From a phage, in sequence record PX092659.1: DNA of 64,000 nucleotides. One strand, written 5' to 3'. Within the stretch, counting starts at the first letter, position 1. Each line of letters starts with the position of its first letter. The notes under the pieces were generated by a model, which was not told the DNA's origin, searched no databases, and saw only the letters and a program-made list of their open reading frames with translations. Below are positions 3,952 to 32,900 of this stretch, piece by piece. The position numbers were made by a program, and so were the translations under genes.

Positions 3952-5778
3952 TTACTTAAGATTTAAGTGTTTTACTCTACCAAGAACTTCTTTTTGTTTC
4001 CCAGAATTGAAAGGCCTACTGCCAGGAGATCCCAGGTACCCGCAAACCCTACGTGTAACCTCTATTTCTTCAGACCCACAACTCGGACATACAAACCCAC
4101 GTTCAGAGGCAACAGATTCACCCATATACCCACAGTTGAAGCACTCATCAATTGGTATATTAACACCAATATAATGGCTACATTCTAGCCCCTTATCCAC
4201 CACATACTCAAGAGCTTTGTGGAACTTTTTCATTTGAGGTAGTTCCACAAATGATATATTACCACCATTAGCTATTTTGGTAAAATGAGCCTCGTACTCA
4301 AATTTAGTATCTGGAGCTACCTTCTCTCTTACGTCCAAATGGTGACTATTAGTAAGATAGCCTTTGTCTGTTAACCAAGAATACTCTGGGAATCTACGTT
4401 CTAGTAATTTATTAAAACGATTACATAGAGACTCACTAGGAGTAGCATACAAGCTAAACCCAAGATTAGTCTCATTAGCTTTAACTTCGCAACGATTTTT
4501 TAGGTGAGTGAGAACTTCCTCTGTAAATTCAATACAGTCCCTATGGGTCTGTGGTAAACTAAACATTATTTGGCACATCTCATAGACCCCAATATACCCA
4601 AGAGATACAGAGGATCTACCCTCAAAAATAGGCCATACATATTCTTCCCCTTCTAAACGTGCACCAAACCCACCGTGCATATAAAGAATAGGGGCTTGTT
4701 TAGCCTTAACTTTCTTCAGTCTGTTTAAGAAGAAGTCATGCGCTTCAAAAGCCTCATCCACATATTTGTCTAGAATACCCCAGAAATCTTCAAAAACTCC
4801 ATCTGCCTCAGCAGCAACCATAGGTAGATTGATAGACACAACACCTAAATTATTACGTCCTGCAATTTCTCCAGAGGGGATAGCAGATAAAAAACTACGA
4901 CAACCCATAGGGGCTTTAAAATCACCAGTAACAGCTACAACTCTCTCGTAACTTAAATAGTCTGGATACATACGAGTAGCAGAACACTCAAGTGCTAGCT
5001 GTTTTATATCATAGTTAGGATCACCTGGGTTTTTATTTAACCCTTCTTTAACTGAGAATACTAGTTTAGGGAAGATAGGGGTTGACTCAGCAGCACCTAA
5101 ACCTTTAATGCGATTTTGGAGGATGGCTTTCTGAATCATCCTTTCCTCCCACTCCTGCCCTAATCCAAAGCCAAGCGTAACAAAAGGGGTCTGCCCATTA
5201 GAGTTAAATAATGAATTAGTTTCATACTCTAGAGCTTGGAATGCATCATAACACTCTTTTTCAGTAAGCTCAGTAGCATACACAGCAGCTTTTCTTTCAT
5301 CCTTGAGCCAACGTAGCCCACGACCCAGATGTTTATTGTAAGACTTTCTGACATACGGGGCTAGAACCTCGTCGATACGATCAATAGAGGTGCCACCATA
5401 CTGAGCACCAGATACTTGGGCAATAATCTGAGCAGTGATTGCACATGCAGTAGTTATGGATTTAGGAGTTTCAATATTTGCATTACCAATTTTAGTACCA
5501 TTCTTCAGCATGCCACCAAGGTCTACTAAGCAACAGTTAGTGTACCCCTGCGCCCTGTAATCCATATCATGAATGTGTATCTTACCTAGATTATGTGCGT
5601 CTAATAGATGTTTGGGTAATTCCTGCGATACTAAATACTTGTTGATTTCTCCGGCTAATAAGTCTCTTTGAGTATGGAACATCTCACTAGGCTTATTAGC
5701 ATTATTATGTTGTAAGTCCTTGTCAGCAGTTAGAGTGAGCAGGCCTTTGCAATTCTCAATTAATTCATTCTCTGTCAT
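3952..5778 (-). CDS. nrdD: anaerobic ribonucleoside-triphosphate reductase (class III)
   Basis: 608 aa; C-terminal zinc-ribbon cysteines and glycyl-radical motif RRVCGYLG. Confidence 0.85.
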   Translation of the reverse strand: MTENELIENCKGLLTLTADKDLQHNNANKPSEMFHTQRDLLAGEINKYLVSQELPKHLLDAHNLGKIHIHDMDYRAQGYTNCCLVDLGGMLKNGTKIGNANIETPKSITTACAITAQIIAQVSGAQYGGTSIDRIDEVLAPYVRKSYNKHLGRGLRWLKDERKAAVYATELTEKECYDAFQALEYETNSLFNSNGQTPFVTLGFGLGQEWEERMIQKAILQNRIKGLGAAESTPIFPKLVFSVKEGLNKNPGDPNYDIKQLALECSATRMYPDYLSYERVVAVTGDFKAPMGCRSFLSAIPSGEIAGRNNLGVVSINLPMVAAEADGVFEDFWGILDKYVDEAFEAHDFFLNRLKKVKAKQAPILYMHGGFGARLEGEEYVWPIFEGRSSVSLGYIGVYEMCQIMFSLPQTHRDCIEFTEEVLTHLKNRCEVKANETNLGFSLYATPSESLCNRFNKLLERRFPEYSWLTDKGYLTNSHHLDVREKVAPDTKFEYEAHFTKIANGGNISFVELPQMKKFHKALEYVVDKGLECSHYIGVNIPIDECFNCGYMGESVASERGFVCPSCGSEEIEVTRRVCGYLGSPGSRPFNSGKQKEVLGRVKHLNLK

Positions 5779-21126: not shown

Positions 21127-21141
21127 TATTTAAGATAAAAG

Positions 21142-21807: not shown

Positions 21808-21828
21808 AATGGGCTCCTCCCCTTAATA

Positions 21829-23047: not shown

Positions 23048-23077
23048 ATATCTATAAATTTGAAAGAGGAACCAAAT

Positions 23078-23596: not shown

Positions 23597-23602
23597 TATA
23601 AT
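23574..23602 (+). promoter_or_regulatory. T5-type promoter embedded in the 3' end of the upstream CDS
   Basis: TTGCTA-17-TATAAT directly upstream of tRNA-Ser/tRNA-Met. Confidence 0.6.
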
Positions 23603-23617
23603 ATATCTTATAAATTC

Positions 23618-23706
23618 GGAAGAATAGCATAACGGTATTGCAGCAGATTGCTAATCTGTCGGCTTGAAATATAGCCTTGTGGGTTCGATTCCCACTTCTT
23701 CCGCCA
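23618..23706 (+). tRNA. tRNA-Ser (anticodon GCT), class II
   Basis: Acceptor ggaagaa/ttcttcc, anticodon loop ttgctaa, long variable arm, T-arm gtggg-ttcgatt-cccac, CCA. Confidence 0.75.
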
Positions 23707-23712
23707 AACATA

Positions 23713-23787
23713 GGGTCGGTAGCTTAAAGTTAAAGCGGTGGCCTCATAAGCTAACGAGTAGGAGTTAGATTCTCCTCCGACCCACCA
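23713..23787 (+). tRNA. tRNA with CAT anticodon (Met, fMet or Ile-lysidine)
   Basis: Acceptor gggtcgg/ccgaccc, anticodon loop ctcataa, T-loop ttagatt, CCA. Confidence 0.65.
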
Positions 23788-23801
23788 ATTAGGTACTGCG
23801 T

Positions 23802-24203
23802 ATGGAAAAGGTTGAATTTGAGTACTTTGGAGTTATTTTAATTGTACACTTAAATGGTACAATAGAAACTAAAGATAGAATAATAACACAACGAAATCAA
23901 TATGGCGAGTATACTAGAACTATAAAAGGAAAGGTACTGTCTCCACGTTGCAATGGTAAATCTGGGTATTTTCAGGTGAAGATTTGCAATAAGGGATTAG
24001 GTAAAAATGAGTATGTGCACAGACTCGTATGGATGGCTTTCAACGGTGAAATACCGGAAGGCTATGAAATAGAGCACAAAGATGATGATAAGTCTAATAA
24101 TGCTTTACCTAACCTAGAATTATTCACAAGAAAGCAGAATATGGACAAAGTCTTAAATAAGATGACTAGAGATTCTCTAGGTCGTTTTGAAAAACTTAAC
24201 TAG
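23802..24203 (+). CDS. HNH homing endonuclease
   Basis: VHRLVWMAFNGEIPEGYEIEHKDDDKSNN...NLELFTRKQN (HNH_3-type). Confidence 0.7.
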   Translation: MEKVEFEYFGVILIVHLNGTIETKDRIITQRNQYGEYTRTIKGKVLSPRCNGKSGYFQVKICNKGLGKNEYVHRLVWMAFNGEIPEGYEIEHKDDDKSNNALPNLELFTRKQNMDKVLNKMTRDSLGRFEKLN

Positions 24204-24211
24204 GAGACTAT

Positions 24212-24397
24212 ATGTCTAAGTTTCAAGAACTCAAGCAAGAGCTAGAAGAATGTGCCTGCCCTGAGTGTAGAGGAATTGGTGAAAGTTCTGATGCAGAAGC
24301 AGGAGATACTTTTTGCAATATCTGGGTTTGCCCAACTTGCAATGGTACAGGTATTAATCCTAACTGCGGTATTTCCCTAGATATTGAGCGAGGATAA
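24212..24397 (+). CDS. small zinc-ribbon protein (61 aa)
   Basis: CxxC...CxxC (CPEC...CPTC). Confidence 0.45.
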   Translation: MSKFQELKQELEECACPECRGIGESSDAEAGDTFCNIWVCPTCNGTGINPNCGISLDIERG

Positions 24398-24498
24398 TAC
24401 CTGTGAAACTAAAAGATTATTATATTGGTTGGTTTGTGGGACTAGTAGTAGTATTTTCACTAGGCTATAATATGTATCAACTAATAAACTGATTACAT

Positions 24499-24575
24499 GG
24501 GGGTGTAATCGAATTGGCATAGGTACTGGACTTAAAATTCAGGTTTTGTGGGTTCGAATCCCACCACCCCTACCA
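24499..24575 (+). tRNA. tRNA with TAA anticodon (Leu by anticodon) but class I architecture
   Basis: Acceptor gggggtg/cacccct, anticodon arm ctgga-cttaaaa-ttcag, 5-nt variable loop, T-arm gtggg-ttcgaat-cccac, CCA. Confidence 0.55.
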
Positions 24576-24590
24576 AATTAAGGAAATAAG

Positions 24591-24758
24591 ATGTATAGAC
24601 ATCCACCTCCGCCAACACGTCGTTCCAGAGAAGTTATCCTCATGGAGTTGACTAAAAACTTCAAGGCAACTCTTGAAGATAGAGATTTAGGCACGGATGA
24701 AGACATTGATTTTATTTGTAGACTATTAAAGATGAAACTGGAGAAACAACATGGCTAA
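24591..24758 (+). CDS. small hypothetical protein (55 aa)
   Basis: ATG after AAGGAAA; below ORF-track cutoff. Confidence 0.3.
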   Translation: MYRHPPPPTRRSREVILMELTKNFKATLEDRDLGTDEDIDFICRLLKMKLEKQHG

Positions 24759-24957
24759 TCCTGAAATTACCGCACAACGTTTCATGCTTAAAGGCATGAT
24801 TGCTGAAGCAGGTATGACTCAAGAGGTTGCAGACTTTCATAAGCAATTTCTTGATATTATAACTCTAGCTAAAGAGACTGGAGAAAAAGAACACGGAGCA
24901 GCAATTATGGCTATATCTCTTATTAGTCTAGACTTGGCTGAAGAATCTGGAGTTTAG
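24751..24957 (+). CDS. hypothetical protein (68 aa)
   Basis: ORF in plus-strand array. Confidence 0.45.
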   Translation: MANPEITAQRFMLKGMIAEAGMTQEVADFHKQFLDIITLAKETGEKEHGAAIMAISLISLDLAEESGV

Positions 24958-24977
24958 CTCCTCCAAACAGAATTTTT

Positions 24978-25007
24978 AAAAATGTACTTGCCTTTTGCTT
25001 TAAATTT
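24978..25007 (+). promoter_or_regulatory. T5-type promoter
   Basis: TTGCCT-18-TATAAT. Confidence 0.55.
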
Positions 25008-25047
25008 CTGATATAATAGTTATATAAATTGATGAAGGAGTTAACGA

Positions 25048-25323
25048 ATGCAAAATCGTGTTATAGCAGCTGGTATTGAAAGTGCAATCTGTAAATCCTG
25101 GGAAGGCTGGGAAGGTGAGATTGAATGGCTTTATTTCTATGATGTAGAACTTCTGCCGGAAGTTAAAGCTAAATGTGTTGAAGCTGGCATGGCTCCAGAT
25201 GCAAAAGCTGATATTGATATTTCAATGTCTGAACTTAAAGGTCGTGTAATTACTGTTAGTGATGAGGGCGAAGAAGTCTTCGAACTTCCATTCTCCTTAA
25301 TTGTCACTCCTAAGTTCGACTAA
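25048..25323 (+). CDS. hypothetical acidic protein (91 aa)
   Basis: ORF with GGAG RBS. Confidence 0.5.
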   Translation: MQNRVIAAGIESAICKSWEGWEGEIEWLYFYDVELLPEVKAKCVEAGMAPDAKADIDISMSELKGRVITVSDEGEEVFELPFSLIVTPKFD

Positions 25324-25359
25324 CTAATACAGCACTGAGCAAGTTCTTTAAAATTTGAC

Positions 25360-25389
25360 TTGCTCAGTGCTATAAAACTTGATATAATA
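25360..25389 (+). promoter_or_regulatory. T5-type promoter overlapping a terminator-like inverted repeat
   Basis: TTGCTC-18-TATAAT; 13-bp inverted repeat agcactgagcaag/cttgctcagtgct (25331-25370) spans the -35. Confidence 0.55.
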
Positions 25390-25520
25390 GTTATCTAATT
25401 TGGAAAGTTCTTTTTAAGGTAGTTCCTACTTTAGTAGAGTAAATTTTTGGCAGATGGCCCCACCATTTTACCGATAACTCCTAGTCAGTGCGGCAACACT
25501 GGCTACCTTAAAGAGAATTT

Positions 25521-25608
25521 GGGCGTTTATTCCGTAAGTGGTAGCGGAGGGGATTGTAAATCCCTGGTCATTGCGACTCGAGTGGTTCGACTCCATTAAC
25601 GCCCACCA
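25521..25608 (+). tRNA. tRNA-Tyr (anticodon GTA), class II
   Basis: Acceptor gggcgtt/aacgccc, anticodon arm gggga-ttgtaaa-tccct, long variable arm, CCA. Confidence 0.75.
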
Positions 25609-25615
25609 AATTTAA

Positions 25616-25692
25616 GTCCTGTTAGACAAACGGGTAAAGTCACTACCCTTTCAAGGTAGGATTTGCGGGTTCGATCCCCGCACAGGACGCCA
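25616..25692 (+). tRNA. tRNA-Glu (anticodon TTC)
   Basis: Acceptor gtcctgt/acaggac, anticodon arm ctacc-ctttcaa-ggtag, T-arm gcggg-ttcgatc-cccgc, CCA. Confidence 0.75.
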
Positions 25693-25701
25693 ATTTCTGC
25701 A

Positions 25702-25777
25702 TTCCTAGAGTGTTACTGGACAGCATGTCGGTCTCCAAAACCGTACGGTCTAGGTTCGAGTCCTAGTAGGTTTGCCA
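25702..25777 (+). ncRNA. tRNA-like element (anticodon arm compatible with CCA/Trp; acceptor stem defective)
   Basis: T-arm ctagg-ttcgagt-cctag plus encoded GCCA end, but only 3-5 of 7 acceptor pairs. Confidence 0.3.
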
Positions 25778-25783
25778 AAATTT

Positions 25784-25858
25784 GCACCTTTAGCTGAGAT
25801 GGATTAGCGCTTGCCTGAAGAGCTTGAGAGGTTCGTTCGATACGAACAGGGTGCACCA
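25784..25858 (+). tRNA. tRNA with GAA anticodon (Phe?), weak anticodon stem
   Basis: Acceptor gcacctt/agggtgc, T-arm gttcg-ttcgata-cgaac, CCA; anticodon stem has two U-U mismatches. Confidence 0.45.
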
Positions 25859-25875
25859 AATTGAAGGAGCTGCTG

Positions 25876-26148
25876 ATGCATCCTGAAAACTTCTTTATTT
25901 ACTGCGCGGATAAGTCGCTGAAACGTAGAATTAACAAAGTCTATCATTATCGTGCTAGTCAACAGCCTTATGTATATGCTTTTGACGGTGATCACATTCC
26001 ACTAGAACAATTATCTTGTGATTACATGATATTGAAGAACTTTGACGAGACGAAGATCTCAAGCGTTCATAATCGACAGAATCCCTTAACGTGGAAATAT
26101 AAGAAGAAAAAGAAAGGCATCAAATTCTTAAAAAATGTAGTTGCTTAG
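25876..26148 (+). CDS. hypothetical protein (about 90 aa)
   Basis: Listed ORF 25861..26148 trimmed to first ATG; ends inside next promoter. Confidence 0.4.
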   Translation: MHPENFFIYCADKSLKRRINKVYHYRASQQPYVYAFDGDHIPLEQLSCDYMILKNFDETKISSVHNRQNPLTWKYKKKKKGIKFLKNVVA

Positions 26149-26169
26149 TTTCTAAAAGTTCTGTATAAT
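26141..26169 (+). promoter_or_regulatory. T5-type promoter
   Basis: TTGCTT-17-TATAAT. Confidence 0.65.
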
Positions 26170-26217
26170 AATTACATAAATTGAACTGGAGAAGCAACAT
26201 GACAGAACAAGATAAAC

Positions 26218-26293
26218 CGACCGTTGGCTGAATGGCTTAGGCGAAGGATTGCAAATCCTTTTTATGTGAGTTCAAATCTCATGCGGTCGTCCA
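26218..26293 (+). tRNA. tRNA-Cys (anticodon GCA)
   Basis: Acceptor cgaccgt/gcggtcg, anticodon arm aagga-ttgcaaa-tcctt, T-arm gtgag-ttcaaat-ctcat, CCA. Confidence 0.75.
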
Positions 26294-26300
26294 AATTTTA

Positions 26301-26383
26301 GGGTCGTTAGCCAAGCGGTTTGGCGGCGGATTGTTAATCCGTGTCGAAAGACAACGTAGGTTCGAATCCTACACGGCCCGCCA
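26301..26383 (+). tRNA. tRNA with GTT anticodon (Asn by anticodon) and a 13-nt variable arm
   Basis: Acceptor gggtcgt/acggccc, D-stem gcca/tggc, anticodon arm gcgga-ttgttaa-tccgt, variable arm gtcgaaagacaac, CCA. Confidence 0.6.
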
Positions 26384-26485
26384 AATTCTGTGTAGAGTTA
26401 AGTAAACCGGTAGCCAACCAGCTATCATTGCTGACATCGAATTCAGCCACAGATACCATTTTCATTAATAACTGAGGAAACAAGC

Positions 26486-26671
26486 ATGTCCAAGAATGTA
26501 ATTGCGCAGCTAGAAGTTCATCGTGATAGCACTATTAACAATATTGAAGTTGAAAAGAAATACATCGAAGAACTTAAACACGATATACTAGTAAGTCTCA
26601 ATCGTCTTAATGTACGAAAAGAGTTTCTTAAAGAACTTAATGCAGCTATTGAAAAACTCAAAGCTGAGTAA
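26486..26671 (+). CDS. hypothetical protein (61 aa)
   Basis: ORF with GAGGAAA RBS. Confidence 0.45.
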   Translation: MSKNVIAQLEVHRDSTINNIEVEKKYIEELKHDILVSLNRLNVRKEFLKELNAAIEKLKAE

Positions 26672-26680
26672 ATGAATTAT

Positions 26681-26757
26681 GCGACCGGGGCTGGCTTGGT
26701 AATGGTACTCCCCTGTCACGGGAGAGAATGTGGGTTCGAATCCCATCGGTCGCGCCA
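26681..26757 (+). tRNA. tRNA-Asp (anticodon GTC)
   Basis: Acceptor gcgaccg/cggtcgc, anticodon arm ctccc-ctgtcac-gggag, T-arm gtggg-ttcgaat-cccat, CCA. Confidence 0.8.
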
Positions 26758-26774
26758 AATAAGGTAGGTTAGCT

Positions 26775-26927
26775 ATGGAATGTAGGGAGTTTACTCCAGA
26801 AGAGATAGAGCAGATAAAAGAATCTGCTATGAAAAATGCTAGAATATCTCTGTCACTGGAAGGTATCATTATTAGTGATGTAAACTTTGAAAAAATCAAA
26901 GCCATAGCTGATGAACTGGAAAAGTAA
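26775..26927 (+). CDS. small hypothetical protein (50 aa)
   Basis: ATG after AAGGTAGG; below ORF-track cutoff. Confidence 0.3.
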   Translation: MECREFTPEEIEQIKESAMKNARISLSLEGIIISDVNFEKIKAIADELEK

Positions 26928-26933
26928 TTTAAT

Positions 26934-27009
26934 ACATCCATAGCTCAATGGTTAGAGCTACCGCCTCTTAAGCGGAGGGTTCTAGGTTCAAGTCCTAGTG
27001 GGTGTACCA
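26934..27009 (+). tRNA. tRNA-Lys (anticodon CTT)
   Basis: Acceptor acatcca/tgggtgt, D-stem gctc/gagc, anticodon loop ctcttaa (one A-A mismatch at stem base), T-arm ctagg-ttcaagt-cctag, CCA. Confidence 0.55.
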
Positions 27010-27034
27010 AATTAATTTAGTATGAGAATATACT

Positions 27035-27382
27035 ATGCGTAATGCTAAAGAAGAGCTGTTACTCGCCTTAAAAAATACCAATTCTAAAGTTAAGTGTATT
27101 AAAATAGAATTTGGGTATTATGGGGACAAAAAAGTCTGGGTATTACCTTTAGGTTATACAGAAGAAGACATTGAGGGGTTTCTTAATAACCTAGACTTTG
27201 AATATGATTCTGGATACGGTGGACAATTACTTTATGGTAATGTATGGTTTGCCGATGGAACTTGGCTAGAACGTGGGGAATATGATGGTGCTGAGTGGTG
27301 GGAATACAAGGCTACACCAGCAATCCCAGAGGAATGCCGAACAATTAATGGTGAAGTAGATAATACTTTACGGTTAAACTAA
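27035..27382 (+). CDS. hypothetical protein (115 aa)
   Basis: ORF in plus-strand array. Confidence 0.5.
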   Translation: MRNAKEELLLALKNTNSKVKCIKIEFGYYGDKKVWVLPLGYTEEDIEGFLNNLDFEYDSGYGGQLLYGNVWFADGTWLERGEYDGAEWWEYKATPAIPEECRTINGEVDNTLRLN

Positions 27383-27504
27383 TAAAATTTCAGTGCAGAA
27401 CACGGAGCTAGCAATTCGGAAGTGCTGACTCATGATAAGCTGCCTATGTACTTGCAAAGCGGTCGTGTCCAAGACTCGGACTCTTGCACTGAAAACAATC
27501 AAAC

Positions 27505-27623
27505 ATTCTAGCGTGGTTGATGGGGAAACCAGCTTGGCTAGGGCAGAAGCTCGTTCGATTCGAGTGAAAGAATGGTTCTCGTAAGTCCGCACAAGTGATA
27601 GCAGGTTCGAGTCCTGTCTAGAA
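27505..27623 (+). ncRNA. tRNA-like RNA with a ~105-nt body
   Basis: 7-bp acceptor-like helix attctag/ctagaat closing a region that ends with canonical T-arm gcagg-ttcgagt-cctgt. Confidence 0.3.
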
Positions 27624-27774
27624 TGATACTATAAAGTTTACTTATTGAGTAGGTTCCGATAGATCGGCGGGTCTATTCTGGCAGTTAAGAGAGGTCTCGC
27701 AAACTTCTTTGTCAGCCGTGGGGTTGGTAGCCTCCAGGTGGCCTACACAATAAGTAAATTTATTAAAAATTCAT

Positions 27775-27803
27775 TTGCTATTTCGCTTAATTCTCGGTAT
27801 AAT
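27775..27803 (+). promoter_or_regulatory. T5-type promoter
   Basis: aaaaattcaTTTGCTA-17-TATAAT. Confidence 0.7.
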
Positions 27804-27835
27804 ATATCTTATAAAGTGTTGAGAAGGAAAGCAAA

Positions 27836-28033
27836 ATGAAAAAAGTTTTACTGCTGTCTGTATTCCTACTTACTGGTTGTTTTAAACTTGACTCAACCAT
27901 TAATAAAGAGTATGAATTTGCTAAAAATTTCTGTGGCGGAGAGAGTAATATAAAGAATTTCTACATATATAGTACAATTCCTAGTACCGTTTATTGTGTA
28001 GACGGACGAATTATTAATATTCCTCCACAATAA
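27836..28033 (+). CDS. small lipoprotein (65 aa)
   Basis: Signal peptide with lipobox LLTGC. Confidence 0.5.
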   Translation: MKKVLLLSVFLLTGCFKLDSTINKEYEFAKNFCGGESNIKNFYIYSTIPSTVYCVDGRIINIPPQ

Positions 28034-28042
28034 AAGAATTAA

Positions 28043-28118
28043 CAGTGCGTAGCGCAGTTGGTAGCGTGGGAGCCTTGGATGCTTCGGGTCGCAGGTTCGA
28101 GTCCTGCCGCACTGACCA
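28043..28118 (+). tRNA. tRNA-Pro (anticodon TGG)
   Basis: Acceptor cagtgcg/cgcactg, anticodon arm ggagc-cttggat-gcttc, T-arm gcagg-ttcgagt-cctgc, CCA. Confidence 0.8.
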
Positions 28119-28124
28119 AACAAT

Positions 28125-28202
28125 TGCGGGTTAGATCTCTGGTAGAGATCGCTAGTCTCATAAGCTAGAAAGAGGTAGGTTCGATTCCTGCACCCGCTTC
28201 CA
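28125..28202 (+). tRNA. tRNA with CAT anticodon (Met, fMet or Ile-lysidine), U-U mismatch at 1:72
   Basis: Acceptor tgcgggt/acccgct, D-stem gatc/gatc, anticodon arm ctagt-ctcataa-gctag, T-arm gtagg-ttcgatt-cctgc, CCA. Confidence 0.6.
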
Positions 28203-28222
28203 TTTTAATAGAGGGTTTCGAA

Positions 28223-28390
28223 ATGAAAGTATTTCGATTAGTAGTAAGTGACAAACGTTTAGGTAAGAATACCTCAAAATCCTTACTTGCTCATTATGGA
28301 AAAGATGAGAAAGAAGTAATGGCGGAGTTTGGGATTAATCACCCTTACTTGAAAGTTCACTCTATTAAAGAAGTATATAATGGTTACTAA
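28223..28390 (+). CDS. small hypothetical protein (55 aa)
   Basis: ATG after GAGGG; between tRNA genes; below ORF-track cutoff. Confidence 0.3.
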   Translation: MKVFRLVVSDKRLGKNTSKSLLAHYGKDEKEVMAEFGINHPYLKVHSIKEVYNGY

Positions 28391-28391
28391 T

Positions 28392-28470
28392 AGATCGCTA
28401 GCTCAATAGGTTTAGTAGCATCCGACTTTTAATCGGAAGGTTCTGGGTTCGAGTCCCAGGCGATCTACCA
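28392..28470 (+). tRNA. tRNA-Lys (anticodon TTT)
   Basis: Acceptor agatcgc/gcgatct, anticodon arm tccga-cttttaa-tcgga, T-arm ctggg-ttcgagt-cccag, CCA. Confidence 0.75.
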
Positions 28471-28488
28471 ATTTCAAGAAAAACGCAG

Positions 28489-28517
28489 TTGCTTAATGCG
28501 TAATTTCTTGTTACAAT
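28489..28517 (+). promoter_or_regulatory. T5-type promoter
   Basis: TTGCTT-17-TACAAT; drives a non-coding transcript. Confidence 0.6.
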
Positions 28518-28745
28518 ATTTATATAAATTGATGAGGAGAAATCCTCGTCATAGTTCACTAAGGTATTAGCTCGACCTAGGACTGGCTGCCAAAAAGCAC
28601 GATCCCTACGATTCGGGAGAAGTTCTAGATTAGTCCACTAGATTCAGCGGCAACTGAATAGTGTATCGGGTTTGCGAGATGACGCGGTTCCTTCCGCTCG
28701 AAGCGAAGGTGCTGTAGTTACGCCGAGCTAATAGCCTTAGTAAAC

Positions 28746-28820
28746 TAAAGAATTTGGGCGAATAGTGTCAGCGGGAGCACACCAGACTTGCAATCTGGTA
28801 GGGAGGGTTCGAGTCCCTCT
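28746..28820 (+). tRNA. tRNA-Ala (anticodon TGC)
   Basis: Acceptor gggcgaa/tttgtcc (G-U pairs), anticodon arm ccaga-cttgcaa-tctgg, T-arm gaggg-ttcgagt-ccctc, CCA. Confidence 0.75.
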
Positions 28821-28825
28821 TTGTC

Positions 28826-28902
28826 CACCAAATACGCGTGATTGATGGAATTGGCATACATACCGTCCTTAGAAGTCGGGTTTTGAGGGTTCGAATCCCT
28901 TG
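28826..28902 (+). tRNA. tRNA with TAG anticodon (Leu by anticodon) but class I architecture
   Basis: Acceptor gcgtgat/gtcacgc, anticodon arm ccgtc-cttagaa-gtcgg (one mismatch), 5-nt variable loop, T-arm gaggg-ttcgaat-ccctt, CCA. Confidence 0.55.
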
Positions 28903-29014
28903 TCACGCACCAAATTTGATGGTCAGAGTAAATTAAACCTACTATCTCGGTTGAGCTGTTTTAATGGGTTCGAATCCCAGCGAGGCGTAACTGCCTGGCG
29001 TGATAGAGGCATCA

Positions 29015-29105
29015 TCTTATTACTGGAAGAGCAAATCGAATTGGCGACGAAAACCGCTTGGAAAGTGGCTGACTGGTAAAACGGCTTGAGAGTTCAAATC
29101 TCTCC
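29015..29105 (+). tRNA. tRNA-Ser (anticodon GGA), class II
   Basis: Acceptor ggaagag/ctcttcc, anticodon loop ttggaaa, ~18-nt variable arm, T-arm gagag-ttcaaat-ctctc, CCA. Confidence 0.65.
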
Positions 29106-29134
29106 TCTTCCGCCAAACACTTGAGGTAATAATA

Positions 29135-29482
29135 ATGTTAGCAAAAGATAAAGCTCTAGAGTTTTTAGCATCTTTAGATGAAGATAAGATTATAGATGCT
29201 GCTGAAAAAGCTGGAATGCCCGATTTAACATATCTGGAACGTGCTATTATTGCTCGTGATAAACTACAGAAAGAGTTTGCTATTGCCCAGGAGGAGTTTT
29301 ATACTCGCTATAACGCTCTTACTAAGCAAATTGAAAATGAGTGTTCCCATACTTGGGGAGTAACAGAAAACCTAGGTAATGATCACGATGGCTGGTCTAA
29401 AGTAAAAATTACCTACTATCATCGTAGGACTTGTAAAATTTGTGGAAAAGTAGAAGATTTCACTAGTACGAGTGACTATTAG
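29135..29482 (+). CDS. hypothetical protein (115 aa), C-terminal zinc-ribbon-like
   Basis: CSHTW...CKIC motif; RBS TGAGGTAA. Confidence 0.5.
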   Translation: MLAKDKALEFLASLDEDKIIDAAEKAGMPDLTYLERAIIARDKLQKEFAIAQEEFYTRYNALTKQIENECSHTWGVTENLGNDHDGWSKVKITYYHRRTCKICGKVEDFTSTSDY

Positions 29483-29495
29483 TATAATAAATACT

Positions 29496-29585
29496 AGAAG
29501 ATAGGACGTAGTGGTACGTAACTGGTCTTGAAAACCAGCCCGCTGTAGCGATACGGTGATGGTTCGACTCCATTATCTTCTGCCA
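29496..29585 (+). tRNA. tRNA-Ser (anticodon TGA), class II
   Basis: Acceptor agaagat/atcttct, anticodon arm ctggt-cttgaaa-accag, long variable arm, T-arm gatgg-ttcgact-ccatt, CCA. Confidence 0.8.
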
Positions 29586-29605
29586 ATTAACTATAAGGAA
29601 GTCTT

Positions 29606-29779
29606 ATGAGCAAAACAGTTACTGTAACAATGAAGGACGGTAAAAAATTTAAAGCATGTCTTCATGAAACAGATAAGGGGTGGATGGCTTATTTGCCACA
29701 CCTAGATTCCACCGGGTACGGAATGACCCAACGTGAAGCTATTGTTGATGCTTTAAATGAGGCTTCTGCTGGTTTATAA
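29606..29779 (+). CDS. small HicB/UPF0150-like protein (57 aa)
   Basis: GWMAYLPHLDSTGYGMTQREAIVDALNEA resembles HicB-fold antitoxins; RBS AAGGAAG; no HicA partner seen. Confidence 0.4.
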   Translation: MSKTVTVTMKDGKKFKACLHETDKGWMAYLPHLDSTGYGMTQREAIVDALNEASAGL

Positions 29780-30148
29780 AAAATTCTTGAAGTATGCCGG
29801 AATCGGTAGACGGGGCTGCCTAAAAGGTTTATAGGGAACATCCACTCCCTGCAACATACCTCATAAAGCGGCTGAGATAAATGGTCTATCTCGTGAAGGT
29901 TCAAGTCCTTCTGCTTCTTGATACATCTATGGCTCAAAGTGTAACGGTGCTATTTGATGCTCTTGGTAAGACTTCCCCGACATGCGTTCGGGAGTAAGCT
30001 GCTAAGACTAGAGTAGAAGAGTTTCTGAGAGCCGCCACAATTGAAAATTCGTACTCGTCTTGAGCTGCGTGCAATAGGAGATAACTTGATTAGTATTCTA
30101 GAACATGCTAATTGAGGATGGTTTCGCTAACCCTGCGAGTTTTCAATT

Positions 30149-30225
30149 GTGGCTATATCATAATTGGTTAATGATCCTGATTGTGAATCAGGCCTATGTG
30201 GATTCGAATTCCACTAGCCACCCCA
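30149..30225 (+). tRNA. tRNA-His (anticodon GTG)
   Basis: Acceptor gtggcta/tagccac, D-stem tcat/atga, anticodon arm cctga-ttgtgaa-tcagg, T-arm gtgga-ttcgaat-tccac, discriminator C, CCA; position -1 is T not G. Confidence 0.7.
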
Positions 30226-30250
30226 AATTAACTTAAATAGGAAATAAAAT

Positions 30251-30448
30251 ATGGCTGATTTCTGCAAACAATGCTCCATTGATATGTGGGGCAGAGATAC
30301 TGGTGATCTTTCTGGTTTGATTACAGAAGCTGAGGTCAAAGAAGGTTATGGTGCAGTTGTGATTTGCGAAGGATGCGGAGTTATTCGAGTAGATCATGAA
30401 GGCAAACGTTTAAAAGAACCGGAAAACTTAGGAGAAACAAATGAGTAA
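30251..30448 (+). CDS. small zinc-ribbon protein (65 aa)
   Basis: CKQC...CEGC motif. Confidence 0.45.
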   Translation: MADFCKQCSIDMWGRDTGDLSGLITEAEVKEGYGAVVICEGCGVIRVDHEGKRLKEPENLGETNE

Positions 30449-30677
30449 TGCTTTAATTAGTGAAATTATGTTAACACGTCTTGCAGAACTGCAAACTCTT
30501 CGAGATGAATCTCAGAATAACTTAGCCTATCATAAACAGATGGTAGATACTCTTACTACTCGTATTGAAACTTACGAGCGTGATATTGCAGCATTACAGG
30601 CTCTTTTCTCAGTATCAGCACCAGATACTTTAGAGCAGCCTGTTGTATCTCAGCCAGTAGAAACAGCATCTAGTTAA
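30441..30677 (+). CDS. hypothetical protein (78 aa)
   Basis: Start overlaps upstream stop. Confidence 0.45.
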   Translation: MSNALISEIMLTRLAELQTLRDESQNNLAYHKQMVDTLTTRIETYERDIAALQALFSVSAPDTLEQPVVSQPVETASS

Positions 30678-30686
30678 TAGCATTTT

Positions 30687-30762
30687 TGGAGTGTAGATCA
30701 ATTGGCAGATCGTCGGCCTCTGACTCCGAAGGTTCCTGGTTCGATCCCAGGCACTCCAGCCA
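30687..30762 (+). tRNA. tRNA-Gln (anticodon CTG)
   Basis: Acceptor tggagtg/cactcca, anticodon loop ctctgac, T-arm cctgg-ttcgatc-ccagg, CCA. Confidence 0.7.
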
Positions 30763-30768
30763 AATAAT

Positions 30769-30844
30769 TGGAGAGTAGTGTAACGGTTAGCACAACGGCC
30801 TTTGACTCCGTTAATGGTAGGTTCGATTCCTCCTTCTCCAGCCA
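30769..30844 (+). tRNA. tRNA-Gln (anticodon TTG)
   Basis: Acceptor tggagag/ttctcca, anticodon loop ctttgac, T-loop ttcgatt, CCA; near-duplicate of the previous gene. Confidence 0.7.
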
Positions 30845-30852
30845 AGTAATAA

Positions 30853-30928
30853 GCGGTTAAGCACACGGGTTGTGTCGCAGGCCTTCCAAGCCTCGCTGAG
30901 TAGGGTTCGATTCCCTCTAGCCGCTCCA
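30853..30928 (+). tRNA. tRNA-Gly (anticodon TCC)
   Basis: Acceptor gcggtta/tagccgc, D-stem caca/tgtg, anticodon loop cttccaa, T-loop ttcgatt, CCA; some stem mismatches. Confidence 0.6.
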
Positions 30929-30944
30929 ACTTTAAGGAAACGTT

Positions 30945-31196
30945 ATGCACGTTTTTGAGTTTCGTAATAAAAGTACCGATAAACGAGTTATTGTTATTGG
31001 AGAAACATACCGAGCATACGAACAAACTGACGGCTCTGTCATCCTGAATGATGAGAAAGGAGGTTTTAGCTTTTATCCAGAAGAACCTTATGAAGAGTTT
31101 CGAAAACAATTTAACCTAGACTGGAGAAAGCATTTAAACACTGTTGCTTCATCTGTAGTATTGCCAACTACCAGTACTGTACTATCTAATGGCTGA
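30945..31196 (+). CDS. hypothetical protein (83 aa)
   Basis: ORF with AAGGAAA RBS. Confidence 0.45.
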   Translation: MHVFEFRNKSTDKRVIVIGETYRAYEQTDGSVILNDEKGGFSFYPEEPYEEFRKQFNLDWRKHLNTVASSVVLPTTSTVLSNG

Positions 31197-31353
31197 TAAC
31201 CTAAAAGTCAAGATCGACAAACAAAAGAAACGTGTAGAAGTAGAGATTGGTGAAGAACGTGTAGCCTTCACCTTTGAATTCCTACAACAAATGGCAATGG
31301 TAGTTATGACTGATAAGTCTCCTGTTATTGAAAAAGAAATCCCGTTGAAATAA
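31189..31353 (+). CDS. small hypothetical protein (54 aa)
   Basis: ATG overlapping upstream stop; followed by hairpin cccgtt-gaaata-acggg. Confidence 0.35.
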   Translation: MADNLKVKIDKQKKRVEVEIGEERVAFTFEFLQQMAMVVMTDKSPVIEKEIPLK

Positions 31354-31363
31354 CGGGATCATC

Positions 31364-31438
31364 GCTCCTAAAGCATTGCTGGCGATGCAGTTGCCTTGTA
31401 AGCATCTGAACCGGGTTCGATTCCTGGTGGGAGCACCA
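31364..31438 (+). tRNA. tRNA-Thr (anticodon TGT)
   Basis: Acceptor gctccta/tgggagc, D-stem gcat/atgc, anticodon loop cttgtaa, T-arm ccggg-ttcgatt-cctgg, CCA. Confidence 0.65.
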
Positions 31439-31453
31439 AATTTAAAAATTCAT

Positions 31454-31482
31454 TTGCTTTCTCTCTTATTTATTGTTATAAT
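31454..31482 (+). promoter_or_regulatory. T5-type promoter
   Basis: aaaaattcaTTTGCTT-17-TATAAT. Confidence 0.7.
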
Positions 31483-31512
31483 ATTTATATAAATTAATGA
31501 GAGGGAAACCAA

Positions 31513-31803
31513 ATGAAACGTTATCTTTCTGTTGTGTTCCAAACTGGTGGTCAACGCTATACCTATGAATTTCCTAGCTCTTGGAAGATCAAAGAAGGTG
31601 ATCAAGTAGTAGTGTTAACACCGCGAGATGGATATAAAGTAGTAACGGTTAAACAAGTATTCCCAAAAGATCATGAACCAGCTAAAGGCATTCGCTATAA
31701 GATGATTCATGGTGTGGTTCGTCAAGTACCACGAACTGAGGTAGAAGTAGATAAGACTGGAGAAGCTAAATTCCGTTATACTTCTTACCTAGATAGTGTG
31801 TGA
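31513..31803 (+). CDS. hypothetical protein (96 aa)
   Basis: ORF with GAGGGAAA RBS. Confidence 0.5.
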   Translation: MKRYLSVVFQTGGQRYTYEFPSSWKIKEGDQVVVLTPRDGYKVVTVKQVFPKDHEPAKGIRYKMIHGVVRQVPRTEVEVDKTGEAKFRYTSYLDSV

Positions 31804-31818
31804 TGTAAATATTTTAAT

Positions 31819-31895
31819 GCTTCGGTAGCTTAGCGATCTAAAGCACTCGGCTGATAACCGAGAGATCGGGGGTTTAAATCCCTCCCGGAGTACCA
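31819..31895 (+). tRNA. tRNA-Ile (anticodon GAT)
   Basis: Acceptor gcttcgg/ccggagt, D-stem gctt/aagc, anticodon arm ctcgg-ctgataa-ccgag, T-arm ggggg-tttaaat-ccctc, CCA. Confidence 0.8.
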
Positions 31896-31991
31896 AATTT
31901 AGGAATTAAGACTATGCGTCCAGGAAAGTTTAAAAAAGCTAGTTGGTCTAAAGAGTATAAAGAATACTTACTTAGTCTAATAAAACATAAT

Positions 31992-32067
31992 AGTTAGTTG
32001 GCAGAGTGGTTATGCACCTCCTTCATACGGAGCGACTACAGTGGTTCAAATCCACTACTAACTACCA
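31992..32067 (+). tRNA. tRNA with CAT anticodon (third copy; Met, fMet or Ile-lysidine)
   Basis: Acceptor agttagt/actaact, anticodon loop ttcatac, T-arm agtgg-ttcaaat-ccact, CCA. Confidence 0.65.
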
Positions 32068-32090
32068 AATTCTAACATCGGGGAGATCTA

Positions 32091-32459
32091 ATGAAAGCAT
32101 ATCAAAACCTTAAATCTGGCGTAATTAACCTTGTTCATGAAAATCAGATTATTCAGCTATACTCCGACAACGGTGAACTTAAACAGAAAGTTCTAGTTGA
32201 AGATCTAGAAGGTATCACACCACAATTCGATCCTGAATCCTTCCGTGAAGTTAAGGTGGAAGTCGCCCCTCAAATCGAAGGTGGTCAGCACCTAAATGTC
32301 AATGTATTAAGCCGTGATCAGCTTTTGGATGCACAGAAACATCCTGAAAAATATCCTCAGTTGACCATCCGTGTCTCTGGCTACGCTGTTCGATTTAATG
32401 CACTGACTCGTGAACAACAGAACGACGTTATTAGTCGTACATTTACTCAGGCGATGTAA
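32091..32459 (+). CDS. grcA: autonomous glycyl-radical cofactor (GrcA/YfiD-like)
   Basis: C-terminal [10 protein letters not shown]...[37 protein letters not shown] matches the PFL-type glycyl-radical domain (RVSGY). Confidence 0.8.
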
Positions 32460-32540: not shown

Positions 32541-32855
32541 GTGGATCGAGCATTAAGACGCCATCACCGGCAACGTGTGAAGAACAACCGCAGGAAGTAT
32601 TGGACAGTCTTCCCACATGAAGAAAGCCCTAAGCGGTTAGGTATTATCACTACTACTCCTTGCATCTGTTCTTGTTGGATGTGTGGGAACCCTCGCAAAT
32701 ACTATAAGAATAGTAAAGCAGGCATGAAAATTTCGGAGATTAGGAAAATGGAAGCAATGATTATGGGCATCTCAAATGATGAATTTGATGACTTTGTAGG
32801 ATTCGGAGAAGGAATCAGCTCAGGCTGTTTCGAAGATGAGCGCCCCGATCTGTAA
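32541..32855 (+). CDS. hypothetical Cys-rich protein (104 aa)
   Basis: GTG start after AGGAG; CxCxxC and CG motifs. Confidence 0.45.
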   Translation: MDRALRRHHRQRVKNNRRKYWTVFPHEESPKRLGIITTTPCICSCWMCGNPRKYYKNSKAGMKISEIRKMEAMIMGISNDEFDDFVGFGEGISSGCFEDERPDL

Positions 32856-32867
32856 TTAATAATAAAC

Positions 32868-32900
32868 CCCAGCTATTGAATAAGTAGTCTGGGGTTTTTC
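32868..32900 (+). terminator. intrinsic terminator
   Basis: Stem ccccag/ctgggg then TTTTTC. Confidence 0.65.

What the first reader, a model, noticed from the sequence alone, without database searches (positions are those of the whole stretch)
32091..32459. Phage-encoded GrcA-like glycyl-radical spare-part protein
The C-terminal ~70 aa closely match the autonomous glycyl-radical cofactor that can repair oxygen-damaged pyruvate formate-lyase ([10 protein letters not shown]). Together with the class III reductase at 3952-5778 it suggests the phage supports anaerobic metabolism during infection; the gene sits at the distal edge of the tRNA island.
Basis: partly seen in the sequence, partly recalled or inferred. 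Interest (0 to 1): 0.55.

Follow-up and report, generated by a model that had tools for sequence, protein, structure and literature searches.

The report
T5-like phage GrcA spare-part protein
This is a real, well-conserved T5-type phage gene for a small stand-alone glycyl-radical protein, a homologue of E. coli GrcA/YfiD and phage T4 Y06I, which repair oxygen-damaged pyruvate formate-lyase; it is a known kind of phage gene, already in databases and often mis-named.

Summary
The ORF at 32091-32459 (+) is real. It encodes 122 aa, has a GGAG ribosome-binding site, and starts 23 nt after the last of 24 tRNA genes. Residues 61-122 form a PFL-type glycyl-radical domain with an invariant [10 protein letters not shown] motif (Gly97). 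They are 74% identical to E. coli GrcA over 74 aa and 79% identical to the PflB C-terminus.

The window is a T5-like phage (Tequintavirus), and the gene is the orthologue of T5.056 (96% identical, same position). It is 52% identical over its full length to T4 Vs.6/Y06I, which was shown biochemically in 2001 to reconstitute oxygen-cleaved PFL. The N-terminal half is a diverged GrcA N-terminus, shown by transitive profile homology.

The gene is under strong purifying selection (dN/dS 0.07) and has phage-like base composition. It is present in about as many T5-like records as a conserved dNMP kinase gene. No PflA- or NrdG-like activase was found in the window or in a complete related genome, so activation must rely on the host.

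The class III reductase at 3952-5778 is real but lies on the minus strand. Its radical motif (RVCGY) is different.

Verdict: observation confirmed and interpretation supported by homology; function in T5-type phages is untested. The finding is already known and of low-to-moderate interest.

The parts
32091..32459 (+). CDS of 122 aa plus stop: GrcA/Y06I-like autonomous glycyl-radical protein, orthologue of T5.056
   Evidence: ORF. phrog_1209 matches over the full length, E=7.9e-48. 96% identical to T5.056. 52% identical over the full length to T4 Vs.6/Y06I. dN/dS 0.068.
32091..32270 (+). N-terminal half (residues 1-60), a diverged GrcA-type N-terminus
   Evidence: It is not aligned by the TIGR04365 model. 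In hhalign of N-terminal halves only, T5-type versus other phage types gives Prob 93.6%, E=2e-7, and other phage types versus bacterial GrcA give Prob 98.2%, E=5e-14. dN/dS 0.11. In YfiD this half is needed for binding cleaved PFL and for activation (PMC8683613).
32271..32456 (+). Glycyl-radical domain (residues 61-122): the PFL beta10-equivalent strand, the Gly loop and the C-terminal helix
   Evidence: Pfam PF01228. Aligns to PFL 698-759 and GrcA 48-126. 40 invariant columns across 33 phage and bacterial homologues. In the AF2 model Gly97 lies between the two predicted strands (residues 92-95 and 98-101), and the Foldseek top hits are 6OWR and 2PFL. dN/dS 0.017.
32370..32399 (+). [10 protein letters not shown] motif; the Gly97 codon is at 32379-32381 (equivalent to PFL Gly734 and GrcA Gly102)
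   Evidence: Read directly from the sequence. Invariant in alignments A1 and A2.
32080..32085 (+). Shine-Dalgarno-like GGGGAG, 5 nt upstream of the ATG
   Evidence: Sequence.
31454..31482 (+). Probable early promoter of the transcription unit (-35 TTGCTT, 17-nt spacer, TG-extended -10 TATAAT), homologous to the annotated T5 promoter P11
   Evidence: The two sequences differ at only 3 positions over the window stretch aligned with the promoter P11 feature annotated in NC_005859. The generic consensus scan did not find it.
31513..31803 (+). First ORF of the unit (96 aa, T5.058 homologue, function unknown)
   Evidence: ORF. phrog_4760 E=1e-55, function unknown.
31819..31895 (+). tRNA-Ile(GAU), in the same transcription unit
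   Evidence: ARAGORN. Rfam tRNA, 64.7 bits.
31992..32067 (+). tRNA-Met(CAU), the last tRNA of the island, 23 nt upstream of the gene
   Evidence: ARAGORN and Rfam. The tRNA-Ile/tRNA-Met-then-gene order is conserved in IMG/VR relatives.
32541..32855 (+). Downstream co-transcribed ORF (104 aa, T5.055 homologue, function unknown, CICSCWMC cysteine motif)
   Evidence: ORF. Motif. phrog_4499 E=1e-40, function unknown, and no Pfam hit.
32867..32899 (+). Probable rho-independent terminator (CCCCAG...CTGGGG followed by TTTTT), homologous to the terminator annotated after T5.055
   Evidence: 97% mean column identity over the aligned stretch that contains the annotated T5 terminator and promoter P10a.
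3952..5778 (-). Context only: phage class III (anaerobic) ribonucleotide reductase NrdD, the other glycyl-radical protein in the window
   Evidence: Pfam NRDD E=5e-157 plus Gly_radical. 52% identical to E. coli NrdD. Its radical motif is TRRVCGYLGSP with a Cys4 ribbon.

Best explanation

Shown by the sequence: it is a stand-alone 122-aa protein. Its C-terminal 62 residues duplicate the C-terminal radical domain of pyruvate formate-lyase, including the RVSGYAV heptapeptide that surrounds the radical glycine. Its N-terminal 60 residues are a diverged GrcA-type N-terminus.

Inferred from the alignment to T5's annotated promoter and terminator: it is transcribed from an early sigma-70-type promoter together with tRNA-Ile and tRNA-Met.

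Inferred from homology to YfiD and Y06I: when the host's PflB has been cleaved by O2 at Gly734, the phage protein binds the damaged enzyme. The N-terminal half helps recognition, and the C-terminal domain inserts in place of the lost segment. Host PflA (the radical-SAM activase) installs a radical on Gly97, and the radical passes to PflB Cys419. [quoted passage not shown]

Why a phage would carry it (inference): T5 shuts off and degrades the host genome early in infection (my own background knowledge). An infected cell therefore cannot induce its own grcA or make new PflB when oxygen fluctuates, as it does in the gut. The phage has no activase of its own, so both this protein and the phage NrdD would depend on pre-existing host PflA and NrdG.
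For: The domain and motif are present: Pfam, NCBIfam, PDB and Foldseek all match. The glycine lies in a block of 40 columns that are invariant across 33 phage and bacterial homologues. The protein is 52% identical over its full length to T4 Vs.6/Y06I and matches phrog_1209 end to end. Y06I and YfiD are the two biochemically validated spare-part proteins (PMC8683613). The N-terminal half is homologous to GrcA N-termini through intermediate phage sequences, and that half is functionally required in YfiD. Purifying selection acts on both halves: dN/dS is 0.11 for codons 1-60 and 0.017 for codons 61-122, and 70 of 92 variable nucleotide sites are third positions. Base composition is phage-like: GC 40.9% against 39.3% for the window, and GC3 33.6%. 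The gene is found at >=80% identity in 436 phage records, against 413 for the conserved dNMP kinase, with nearly identical organism-name counts for the surrounding 2-kb region and the kinase. The position after tRNA-Ile/tRNA-Met is conserved. A promoter and terminator homologous to annotated T5 features bracket the unit. No PflA or NrdG homologue is present in the window or in a complete related 106.6-kb genome.
Against: No experiment exists for any T5-type protein; three literature searches found none. The protein scores below the curated GrcA equivalog cut-off (121.6 against 170 bits), and only residues 50-122 align to that model. However, validated T4 Y06I also falls below the cut-off (151.1 bits). 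The radical domain alone cannot show whether the partner is PflB, TdcE or both: 49, 51 and 48 of 62 residues are identical to PflB, TdcE and GrcA respectively. T5's tRNA region is known to tolerate deletions in the laboratory (my own background knowledge, not checked here), so any benefit is conditional. The activase search used only E. coli PflA and NrdG as tblastn queries, so a very divergent radical-SAM protein could have been missed.
Confidence: 0.75

Rival explanations
1. The protein is a spare part for, or activator of, a different host glycyl-radical enzyme. The main candidate is TdcE (2-ketobutyrate/pyruvate formate-lyase), either instead of PflB or in addition to it.
For: The C-terminal 62 residues are marginally closer to TdcE (51/62 identical) than to PflB (49/62) or GrcA (48/62). 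The tail [17 protein letters not shown] is TdcE-like. Several databases name the protein '2-ketobutyrate formate-lyase'.
Against: Differences of 1-3 residues out of 62 are not discriminating. TdcE and PflB are themselves 52/62 identical in this region. T4 Y06I and YfiD were validated on PflB. Database names are automatic transfers from the C-terminal match.
Confidence: 0.12
2. The protein is a decoy or regulator rather than a repair part. It competes for host PflA, or docks on PflB without supporting catalysis, and so redirects or damps host fermentation during infection.
For: The RVSGYAV motif is intact, so host PflA could plausibly recognise it. The N-terminal half is strongly diverged from bacterial GrcA, which would allow altered partner binding. 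No experimental data on the T5-type protein were found.
Against: The entire radical domain is almost invariant (dN/dS 0.017), including residues beyond the activase-recognition motif such as the beta10-equivalent [10 protein letters not shown] and the C-terminal helix. That is expected if the domain must fit productively into the PFL barrel. The T4 homologue restores activity.
Confidence: 0.08
3. The protein is a spare part for the phage's own class III ribonucleotide reductase NrdD.
For: Both genes occur in the same phage genome, and NrdD is also cleaved at its glycyl radical by O2 (the O2 cleavage is general GRE knowledge).
Against: The NrdD radical segment is TRRVCGYLGSP, preceded by a Cys4 zinc ribbon. 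It bears no resemblance to [10 protein letters not shown]...[10 protein letters not shown]. The protein matches PFL-family models 10-20 orders of magnitude better than other GRE families. NrdD is activated by NrdG, not PflA. The two genes lie 26 kb apart on opposite strands.
Confidence: 0.02
4. The ORF is a non-functional remnant of a captured 3' end of host pflB or grcA.
For: Only the last ~62 codons resemble host genes, at 71-75% nucleotide identity.
Against: All 31 sequences compared (the window plus 30 related loci) have intact ORFs, and dN/dS is 0.07. The gene occurs in ~436 T5-like and ~1000 T4-like records. Its RBS, promoter and terminator are conserved. Its base composition is ameliorated to that of the phage. 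The N-terminal half is itself conserved and GrcA-like.
Confidence: 0.01

Closest known systems
Bacteriophage T4 Vs.6 / Y06I (autonomous glycyl radical cofactor; Wagner et al. 2001, as cited in PMC8683613)
   Same: Both are stand-alone phage proteins of ~120 aa. They are 52% identical over their full length and share the N-terminal MKAYQ start and the same radical domain. Both belong to the same PHROG (phrog_1209). Both score below the TIGR04365 cut-off.
   Different: T4's last 186 nt are 95.7% identical to E. coli grcA, which suggests recent exchange with the host. The T5-type gene is about equally distant (71-75%) from grcA, pflB and tdcE, and has phage-like GC. The T5-type N-terminal half has an extra segment (about residues 9-33) and does not align to the GrcA HMM. 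The genomic context also differs: the vs/regB region in T4, against the end of the tRNA island in T5. T4 encodes its own NrdG (background knowledge), whereas no activase was found in the T5-like genome examined.
E. coli GrcA / YfiD (TIGR04365; PDB 6OWR)
   Same: The size and two-part architecture are the same. Residues 51-122 are 74% identical. The glycine context is identical. The predicted fold of the C-terminal half matches 6OWR (target-normalised TM-score 0.75).
   Different: The N-terminal 50 residues have no direct pairwise similarity; homology is seen only transitively. The score is below the equivalog cut-off. The gene is phage-borne and lies in a unit bracketed by sequences homologous to an annotated T5 promoter and terminator, rather than in the host chromosome.
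Pyruvate formate-lyase PflB and TdcE (formate C-acetyltransferase, TIGR01255)
   Same: The last 62 residues are 79-82% identical to the enzymes' C-terminal glycyl-radical domain.
   Different: The protein lacks the ~700-residue barrel and the catalytic Cys418/Cys419, so it cannot be a formate-lyase. Its TIGR01255 score is 85.8 against a cut-off of 994. The GenBank names 'pyruvate formate-lyase', '2-ketobutyrate formate-lyase' and 'acetyltransferase-related protein' are therefore misnomers.

Membership tests
[quoted passage not shown] | Stand-alone small protein (~120-130 aa) not fused to a GRE barrel | tested here: met
   122-aa ORF with its own RBS, start and stop. The flanking sequence is a tRNA gene upstream and an unrelated ORF downstream.
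[quoted passage not shown] | C-terminal PFL-type glycyl-radical domain with the radical Gly in the RVSGYAV context | tested here: met
   PF01228 scores 66.5 bits against a cut-off of 22.2. [10 protein letters not shown] is invariant in the alignments with GrcA, PflB, TdcE and Y06I.
[quoted passage not shown] | Score at or above the curated equivalog cut-off (170 bits) | tested here: not met
   121.6 bits, with only residues 50-122 aligned. For calibration, E. coli GrcA scores 234 bits, but experimentally validated T4 Y06I scores only 151.1. The cut-off therefore excludes functional phage members.
[quoted passage not shown] | GrcA-type N-terminal half (needed for cleaved-PFL binding and activation in YfiD) | tested here: inconclusive
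   There is no direct match: hhalign of T5-type against bacterial N-termini aligns only 12 columns, Prob 31%. Transitive homology exists through other phage GrcA-like proteins (Prob 93.6% and 98.2%). Q5 and R52 are nearly invariant across all sequences. Functional equivalence is untested.
[quoted passage not shown] | Radical installed by PFL-activating enzyme, and activity restored to O2-cleaved PFL | not testable with these tools
   This needs EPR or an enzymatic assay, or in vivo complementation. Published only for YfiD and T4 Y06I.
Phage Y06I/Vs.6-like proteins (phrog_1209) | Full-length match to the phage family profile and to T4 Y06I | tested here: met
   phrog_1209 E=7.9e-48, residues 1-122 against profile positions 1-121 of 121. 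BLASTP against T4 Vs.6 gives 52% identity over 1-122, E=8e-39.
Orthologue of T5.056 (Tequintavirus) | High identity and conserved synteny (tRNA-Ile, tRNA-Met, this gene, then the T5.055 homologue and a terminator) | tested here: met
   96% identical to T5.056. The gene order matches the NC_005859 annotation and is the same in IMG/VR relatives. The promoter and terminator align at 93-97%.
Formate C-acetyltransferase (PflB/TdcE, TIGR01255) | ~750-aa ten-stranded barrel with the catalytic Cys-Cys pair | tested here: not met
   Only profile positions 683-744 of 744 are matched, and the score is 85.8 bits against a cut-off of 994.2. The protein has 122 aa and no cysteine (sequence).

The most novel reading that the evidence does not exclude
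The T5-type protein may be a long-resident, independently evolving GrcA lineage with a role other than oxygen repair. Its N-terminal half has diverged beyond direct recognition by the bacterial GrcA model. It might instead supply a radical domain to intact but unactivated or otherwise inactive PflB or TdcE in a host whose gene expression has been shut off. Alternatively, it might retune the fermentative flux of pyruvate to formate and acetyl-CoA for phage nucleotide and energy supply. In either case it would be a true phage auxiliary metabolic gene for gut microaerobic niches, working in concert with the activase-less NrdD.
Probability: 0.12. Interest if true: 0.5.

Novelty: already known. Interest (0 to 1): 0.2.

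Why it matters
The gene shows that T5-like coliphages and Salmonella phages, like T4-like phages, keep a tiny repair part for the host's central fermentation enzyme under strong selection. They also keep an anaerobic ribonucleotide reductase but no activase. This points to adaptation to the fluctuating-oxygen gut environment and to dependence on pre-existing host radical-SAM activases.

In practical terms, many GenBank records mis-name the gene as 'pyruvate formate-lyase', '2-ketobutyrate formate-lyase', 'acetyltransferase-related protein' or even 'ribonucleotide reductase subunit'. These should read 'autonomous glycyl radical cofactor (GrcA/Y06I-like)'. Nothing here changes current understanding. 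The open item is an experimental test of the T5-type protein and of its fitness effect.

Tried and rejected
1. Phage-encoded activase. tblastn of E. coli PflA and NrdG against the window and against the complete related genome OQ291057 found nothing at E<=0.1 in the window or E<=1 in OQ291057. The only CxxxCxxC motif in the window is in the 104-aa ORF at 32541-32855, which is too small for a radical-SAM enzyme and has no Pfam hit.

2. Function of neighbouring ORFs. Pfam and PHROGs return only families of unknown function.

3. Hidden RNA elements around the gene. Rfam at E<=0.01 finds only the three tRNAs.

4. Generic promoter and terminator scan. It found nothing beyond shuffled expectation and missed the relevant signals. 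I aligned to the annotated T5 promoter P11 and terminator instead.

5. Deciding from the C-terminal domain whether the gene derives from grcA, pflB or tdcE. This cannot be resolved: 48-51 of 62 residues are identical, and nucleotide identity is 71-75% to all three.

6. A folded N-terminal domain as a point of difference from YfiD. AF2 predicts beta strands with mean pLDDT of about 67-81 across residues 1-60. The same run on an E. coli-type GrcA gives an equally confident beta-rich N-terminus, although NMR shows that region is disordered. I therefore rejected it as evidence of a difference.

7. Literature on T5-type GrcA, T5.056 or expression data. Three searches found nothing specific.

8. NrdD as the partner. 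Rejected on the radical-motif comparison.

Full report
OBSERVATION. The window has an ATG-to-TAA ORF at 32091-32459 on the + strand that encodes 122 aa. GGGGAG lies at 32080-32085, 5 nt before the start codon. [10 protein letters not shown] is residues 94-103 (nt 32370-32399), and Gly97 is the codon at 32379-32381. ARAGORN finds 24 tRNA genes at 20010-32067, all on the + strand. The last one, tRNA-Met(CAU) at 31992-32067, ends 23 nt before the ATG. The ORF at 3952-5778 is a class III ribonucleotide reductase (Pfam NRDD E=5e-157; 52% identical to E. coli NrdD), but it is on the minus strand.

WHAT THE PROTEIN IS. Pfam places a Gly_radical domain at residues 62-103 (66.5 bits, cut-off 22.2). The best NCBIfam models are the three GrcA models, followed by PFL. 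All match only the C-terminal 60-73 residues and all score below their equivalog cut-offs; TIGR04365 gives 121.6 against 170 bits. PHROGs matches phrog_1209 end to end (E=7.9e-48). Against solved structures the best hits are YfiD/GrcA (6OWR, E=1.2e-30) and E. coli PFL (E=5e-27, PFL residues 698-759).

I fetched the real host and phage genes to align them: E. coli K-12 grcA, pflB and tdcE, T5.056, and T4 vs.6. The alignment shows 46 invariant columns, nearly all in the C-terminal half, including [10 protein letters not shown] and [30 protein letters not shown]. A wider alignment of 33 phage and bacterial homologues keeps 40 invariant columns in the same block.

An AlphaFold2 model (mean pLDDT 71) puts Gly97 between two predicted strands (residues 92-95 and 98-101), followed by a C-terminal helix. 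The top Foldseek hits are the YfiD NMR structure (target-normalised TM-score 0.75) and PFL.

WHOSE GENE IT IS. The window is a T5-like phage (Demerecviridae, Tequintavirus). The 2-kb region is 94-97.5% identical to SP15, FFH_1, NBEco001, T5_ev219 and many others. The gene is the orthologue of T5.056: it is 96% identical and has the same order of tRNA-Ile, tRNA-Met, this gene and the T5.055 homologue. An identical protein is already in NCBI (Salmonella phage Kenya-K16 and others, 47 contigs).

tblastn finds the protein in 1585 phage records. About 436 are T5-like at >=80% identity and about 1000 are T4-like at ~52% identity. There are also hits in jumbo phages and in Vibrio and Aeromonas phages. 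A conserved T5-clade gene, the dNMP kinase, is found at >=80% identity in 413 records. The organism-name counts for that gene (Salmonella 271, Escherichia 131) nearly match those for the 2-kb region around the GrcA-like gene (Salmonella 271, Escherichia 132). The gene is therefore near-universal in this clade.

Annotations vary: 'putative acetyltransferase-related protein' (T5), 'pyruvate formate-lyase', '2-ketobutyrate formate-lyase', 'hypothetical protein', and in some records 'autonomous glycyl radical cofactor GrcA'.

RELATION TO THE VALIDATED SPARE PARTS. T4 Vs.6 is Y06I, and RefSeq names it autonomous glycyl radical cofactor. According to PMC8683613, YfiD and Y06I are the only two spare-part proteins validated biochemically. 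Both are activated by PFL-AE and restore activity to O2-cleaved PFL (Wagner et al. 2001). The window protein is 52% identical to Y06I over its whole length, including the N-terminal MKAYQ. Y06I itself scores below the TIGR04365 cut-off (151.1 bits, against 234 for E. coli GrcA). Failing that cut-off therefore does not argue against function.

I removed the radical domain and compared N-terminal halves by profile. T5-type against other phage types gives hhalign probability 93.6% (E=2e-7, 53 columns). Other phage types against bacterial GrcA give 98.2% (E=5e-14, 58 columns). T5-type against bacterial GrcA directly aligns only 12 columns. The whole protein is therefore a diverged GrcA homologue, not an independently truncated pflB. 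This matters because in YfiD the N-terminal 60 residues, although disordered by NMR, are needed for binding cleaved PFL and for efficient radical installation.

IS IT A LIVE GENE? I compared the window gene with 30 T5-like orthologues from IMG/VR: 31 sequences, 29 distinct DNA sequences and 17 distinct proteins, all intact. dN/dS is 0.068 overall, 0.11 for codons 1-60 and 0.017 for codons 61-122. Of 92 variable nucleotide positions, 70 are third codon positions. GC is 40.9% against 39.3% for the window, and GC3 is 33.6%. The 3' ends of the host genes are 49-51% GC.

At the DNA level the last 186 nt are 71-75% identical to grcA, pflB and tdcE alike. By contrast, T4's are 95.7% identical to E. 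coli grcA. The T5-type gene is thus an old, ameliorated resident of the phage lineage, while the T4 gene appears to have exchanged its 3' half with the host recently.

EXPRESSION SIGNALS. The generic consensus scan was uninformative. However, the sequence upstream of ORF 31513-31803 differs at only 3 positions from the aligned part of the promoter P11 annotated in T5. It has -35 TTGCTT at 31454-31459, a 17-nt spacer, and a TG-extended -10 TATAAT at 31477-31482. The sequence after ORF 32541-32855 aligns at 97% with the stretch of T5 that contains its annotated rho-independent terminator (CCCCAG...CTGGGG followed by TTTTT, 32867-32899).

The likely unit is therefore: promoter, 96-aa ORF, tRNA-Ile, 27-aa ORF, tRNA-Met, the GrcA-like gene, 104-aa ORF, terminator. 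This is inferred from homology to annotated features. It has not been shown by transcript data.

MECHANISM.

Shown: the protein has the architecture, motif, fold and selection pattern of a GrcA/Y06I-type protein.

Inferred: host PflA installs the radical on Gly97 once the protein is docked on O2-cleaved PflB. [quoted passage not shown]

No PflA or NrdG homologue is detectable in the window or in a complete related genome (OQ291057, 106.6 kb), although NrdD and the GrcA-like gene are both found there. Both phage glycyl-radical proteins would therefore depend on host activases.

The phage NrdD radical segment (TRRVCGYLGSP after a Cys4 ribbon) is unrelated to the PFL-type segment, so NrdD is not the partner. 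TdcE cannot be excluded as an additional partner: 51 of 62 residues are identical, against 49 of 62 for PflB.

A plausible rationale rests on my background knowledge that T5 shuts off and degrades the host genome early. An infected cell could not induce its own grcA or replace PflB, so the phage supplies the part.

CALIBRATION OF A TEMPTING DIFFERENCE. AF2 predicts a beta-rich N-terminal half (mean pLDDT about 67-81 across residues 1-60), whereas YfiD's N-terminus is disordered by NMR. The same procedure on an E. coli-type GrcA also gives a beta-rich N-terminus, with mean pLDDT 78-86 across its first 60 residues. This is therefore not evidence of a structural difference. In both models the beta10-equivalent strand (residues 60-71 here) has pLDDT below 50, which is consistent with it folding only within the PFL barrel (inference).

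COMPARISON AND NOVELTY. Phage-encoded GrcA-like proteins have been known since 2001 (T4 Y06I). The T5 orthologue has been in GenBank since the T5 genome was annotated, with an InterPro glycine-radical match. Identical proteins are deposited, and several T5-like records already call it GrcA. What remains unknown is experimental: no study of a T5-type protein was found in the searchable library. I therefore rate it 'already known', with modest interest as an auxiliary metabolic gene and as a correction of widespread mis-annotation.

VERDICT. Confidence in the spare-part mechanism is about 0.75. Interest is 0.2.

Noticed in passing
window 32541-32855 (+): The 104-aa ORF immediately downstream of the GrcA-like gene (T5.055 homologue) carries a CICSCWMC (CxCxCxxC) cysteine cluster followed by GNPRK. 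It has no Pfam hit and matches only phrog_4499 and phrog_6828, both of unknown function. It is too small for a radical-SAM enzyme but may bind metal. It appears to be co-transcribed with the GrcA-like gene.
   Followed up: partly
L008:4561-4920 (-) (T4 vs.6, NC_000866 63557-63919): T4 Y06I is a mosaic. Its last 186 nt are 95.7% identical to E. coli grcA (46.8% GC), whereas the 5' part matches at only about 48% of aligned columns and has 34.5% GC. This suggests recent recombination or gene conversion with the host gene. The T5-type gene shows no such signal.
   Followed up: partly
window 3952-5778 (-); complete relative OQ291057 (L044-L046): The phage encodes NrdD, but no NrdG-like activase is detectable in the window or in a complete related genome. 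The phage class III reductase would therefore depend on host NrdG.
   Followed up: partly
window 3561-6723: The NrdD region is mosaic among T5-like phages. It has no megablast match to Kenya-K34 there. The window's NrdD is only 57% identical to T5 NrdD, which lacks a 48-aa internal segment, whereas the GrcA-like protein is 96% identical to T5's. A 306-aa ORF with T5orf172, DUF4379 and CapR domains (5765-6685, minus strand) overlaps the NrdD start by 14 nt.
   Followed up: no
window 10475-10990 (+): An HNH endonuclease ORF sits between nrdA (7938-10373) and nrdB (10999-12144), as does hegH in T5. This is typical homing-endonuclease traffic.
   Followed up: no
window 2348-3175 (-) and 1686-2192 (-): A Sir2-family ORF and an ORF with a HAD domain of the 'Swiss Army Knife RNA repair' type lie downstream of NrdD, as in T5 (T5.102 and T5.105).
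   Followed up: no
window 31914-31997 (+): A 27-aa ORF (MRPGKFKKASWSKEYKEYLLSLIKHNS), the homologue of annotated T5.057, fills the gap between tRNA-Ile and tRNA-Met and overlaps the first 6 nt of tRNA-Met.
   Followed up: no
L001:6606-6800 (T5_ev219); also SP15, FFH_1 and others: Many close relatives have a ~250-bp insertion with a 64-aa hypothetical ORF between tRNA-Met and the GrcA-like gene (two-piece matches; CDS). It is absent from the window and from T5.
   Followed up: no
public records: Naming of this gene is inconsistent and often wrong: 'pyruvate formate-lyase', '2-ketobutyrate formate-lyase', 'acetyltransferase-related protein'. A 67-aa truncated form (P0033) is named 'ribonucleotide reductase subunit'. 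One record (KKP_3822) shows a two-piece match, which suggests a frameshift.
   Followed up: no
P0108 (protein cluster of 900 members, short Logan contigs): This is an E. coli-type GrcA whose last ~20 residues are PflB-like (SLTKEQQQDVITRTFTQSM) rather than GrcA-like. It could be a real grcA/pflB recombinant, or an assembly chimera formed across the nearly identical [10 protein letters not shown]-coding stretch.
   Followed up: no
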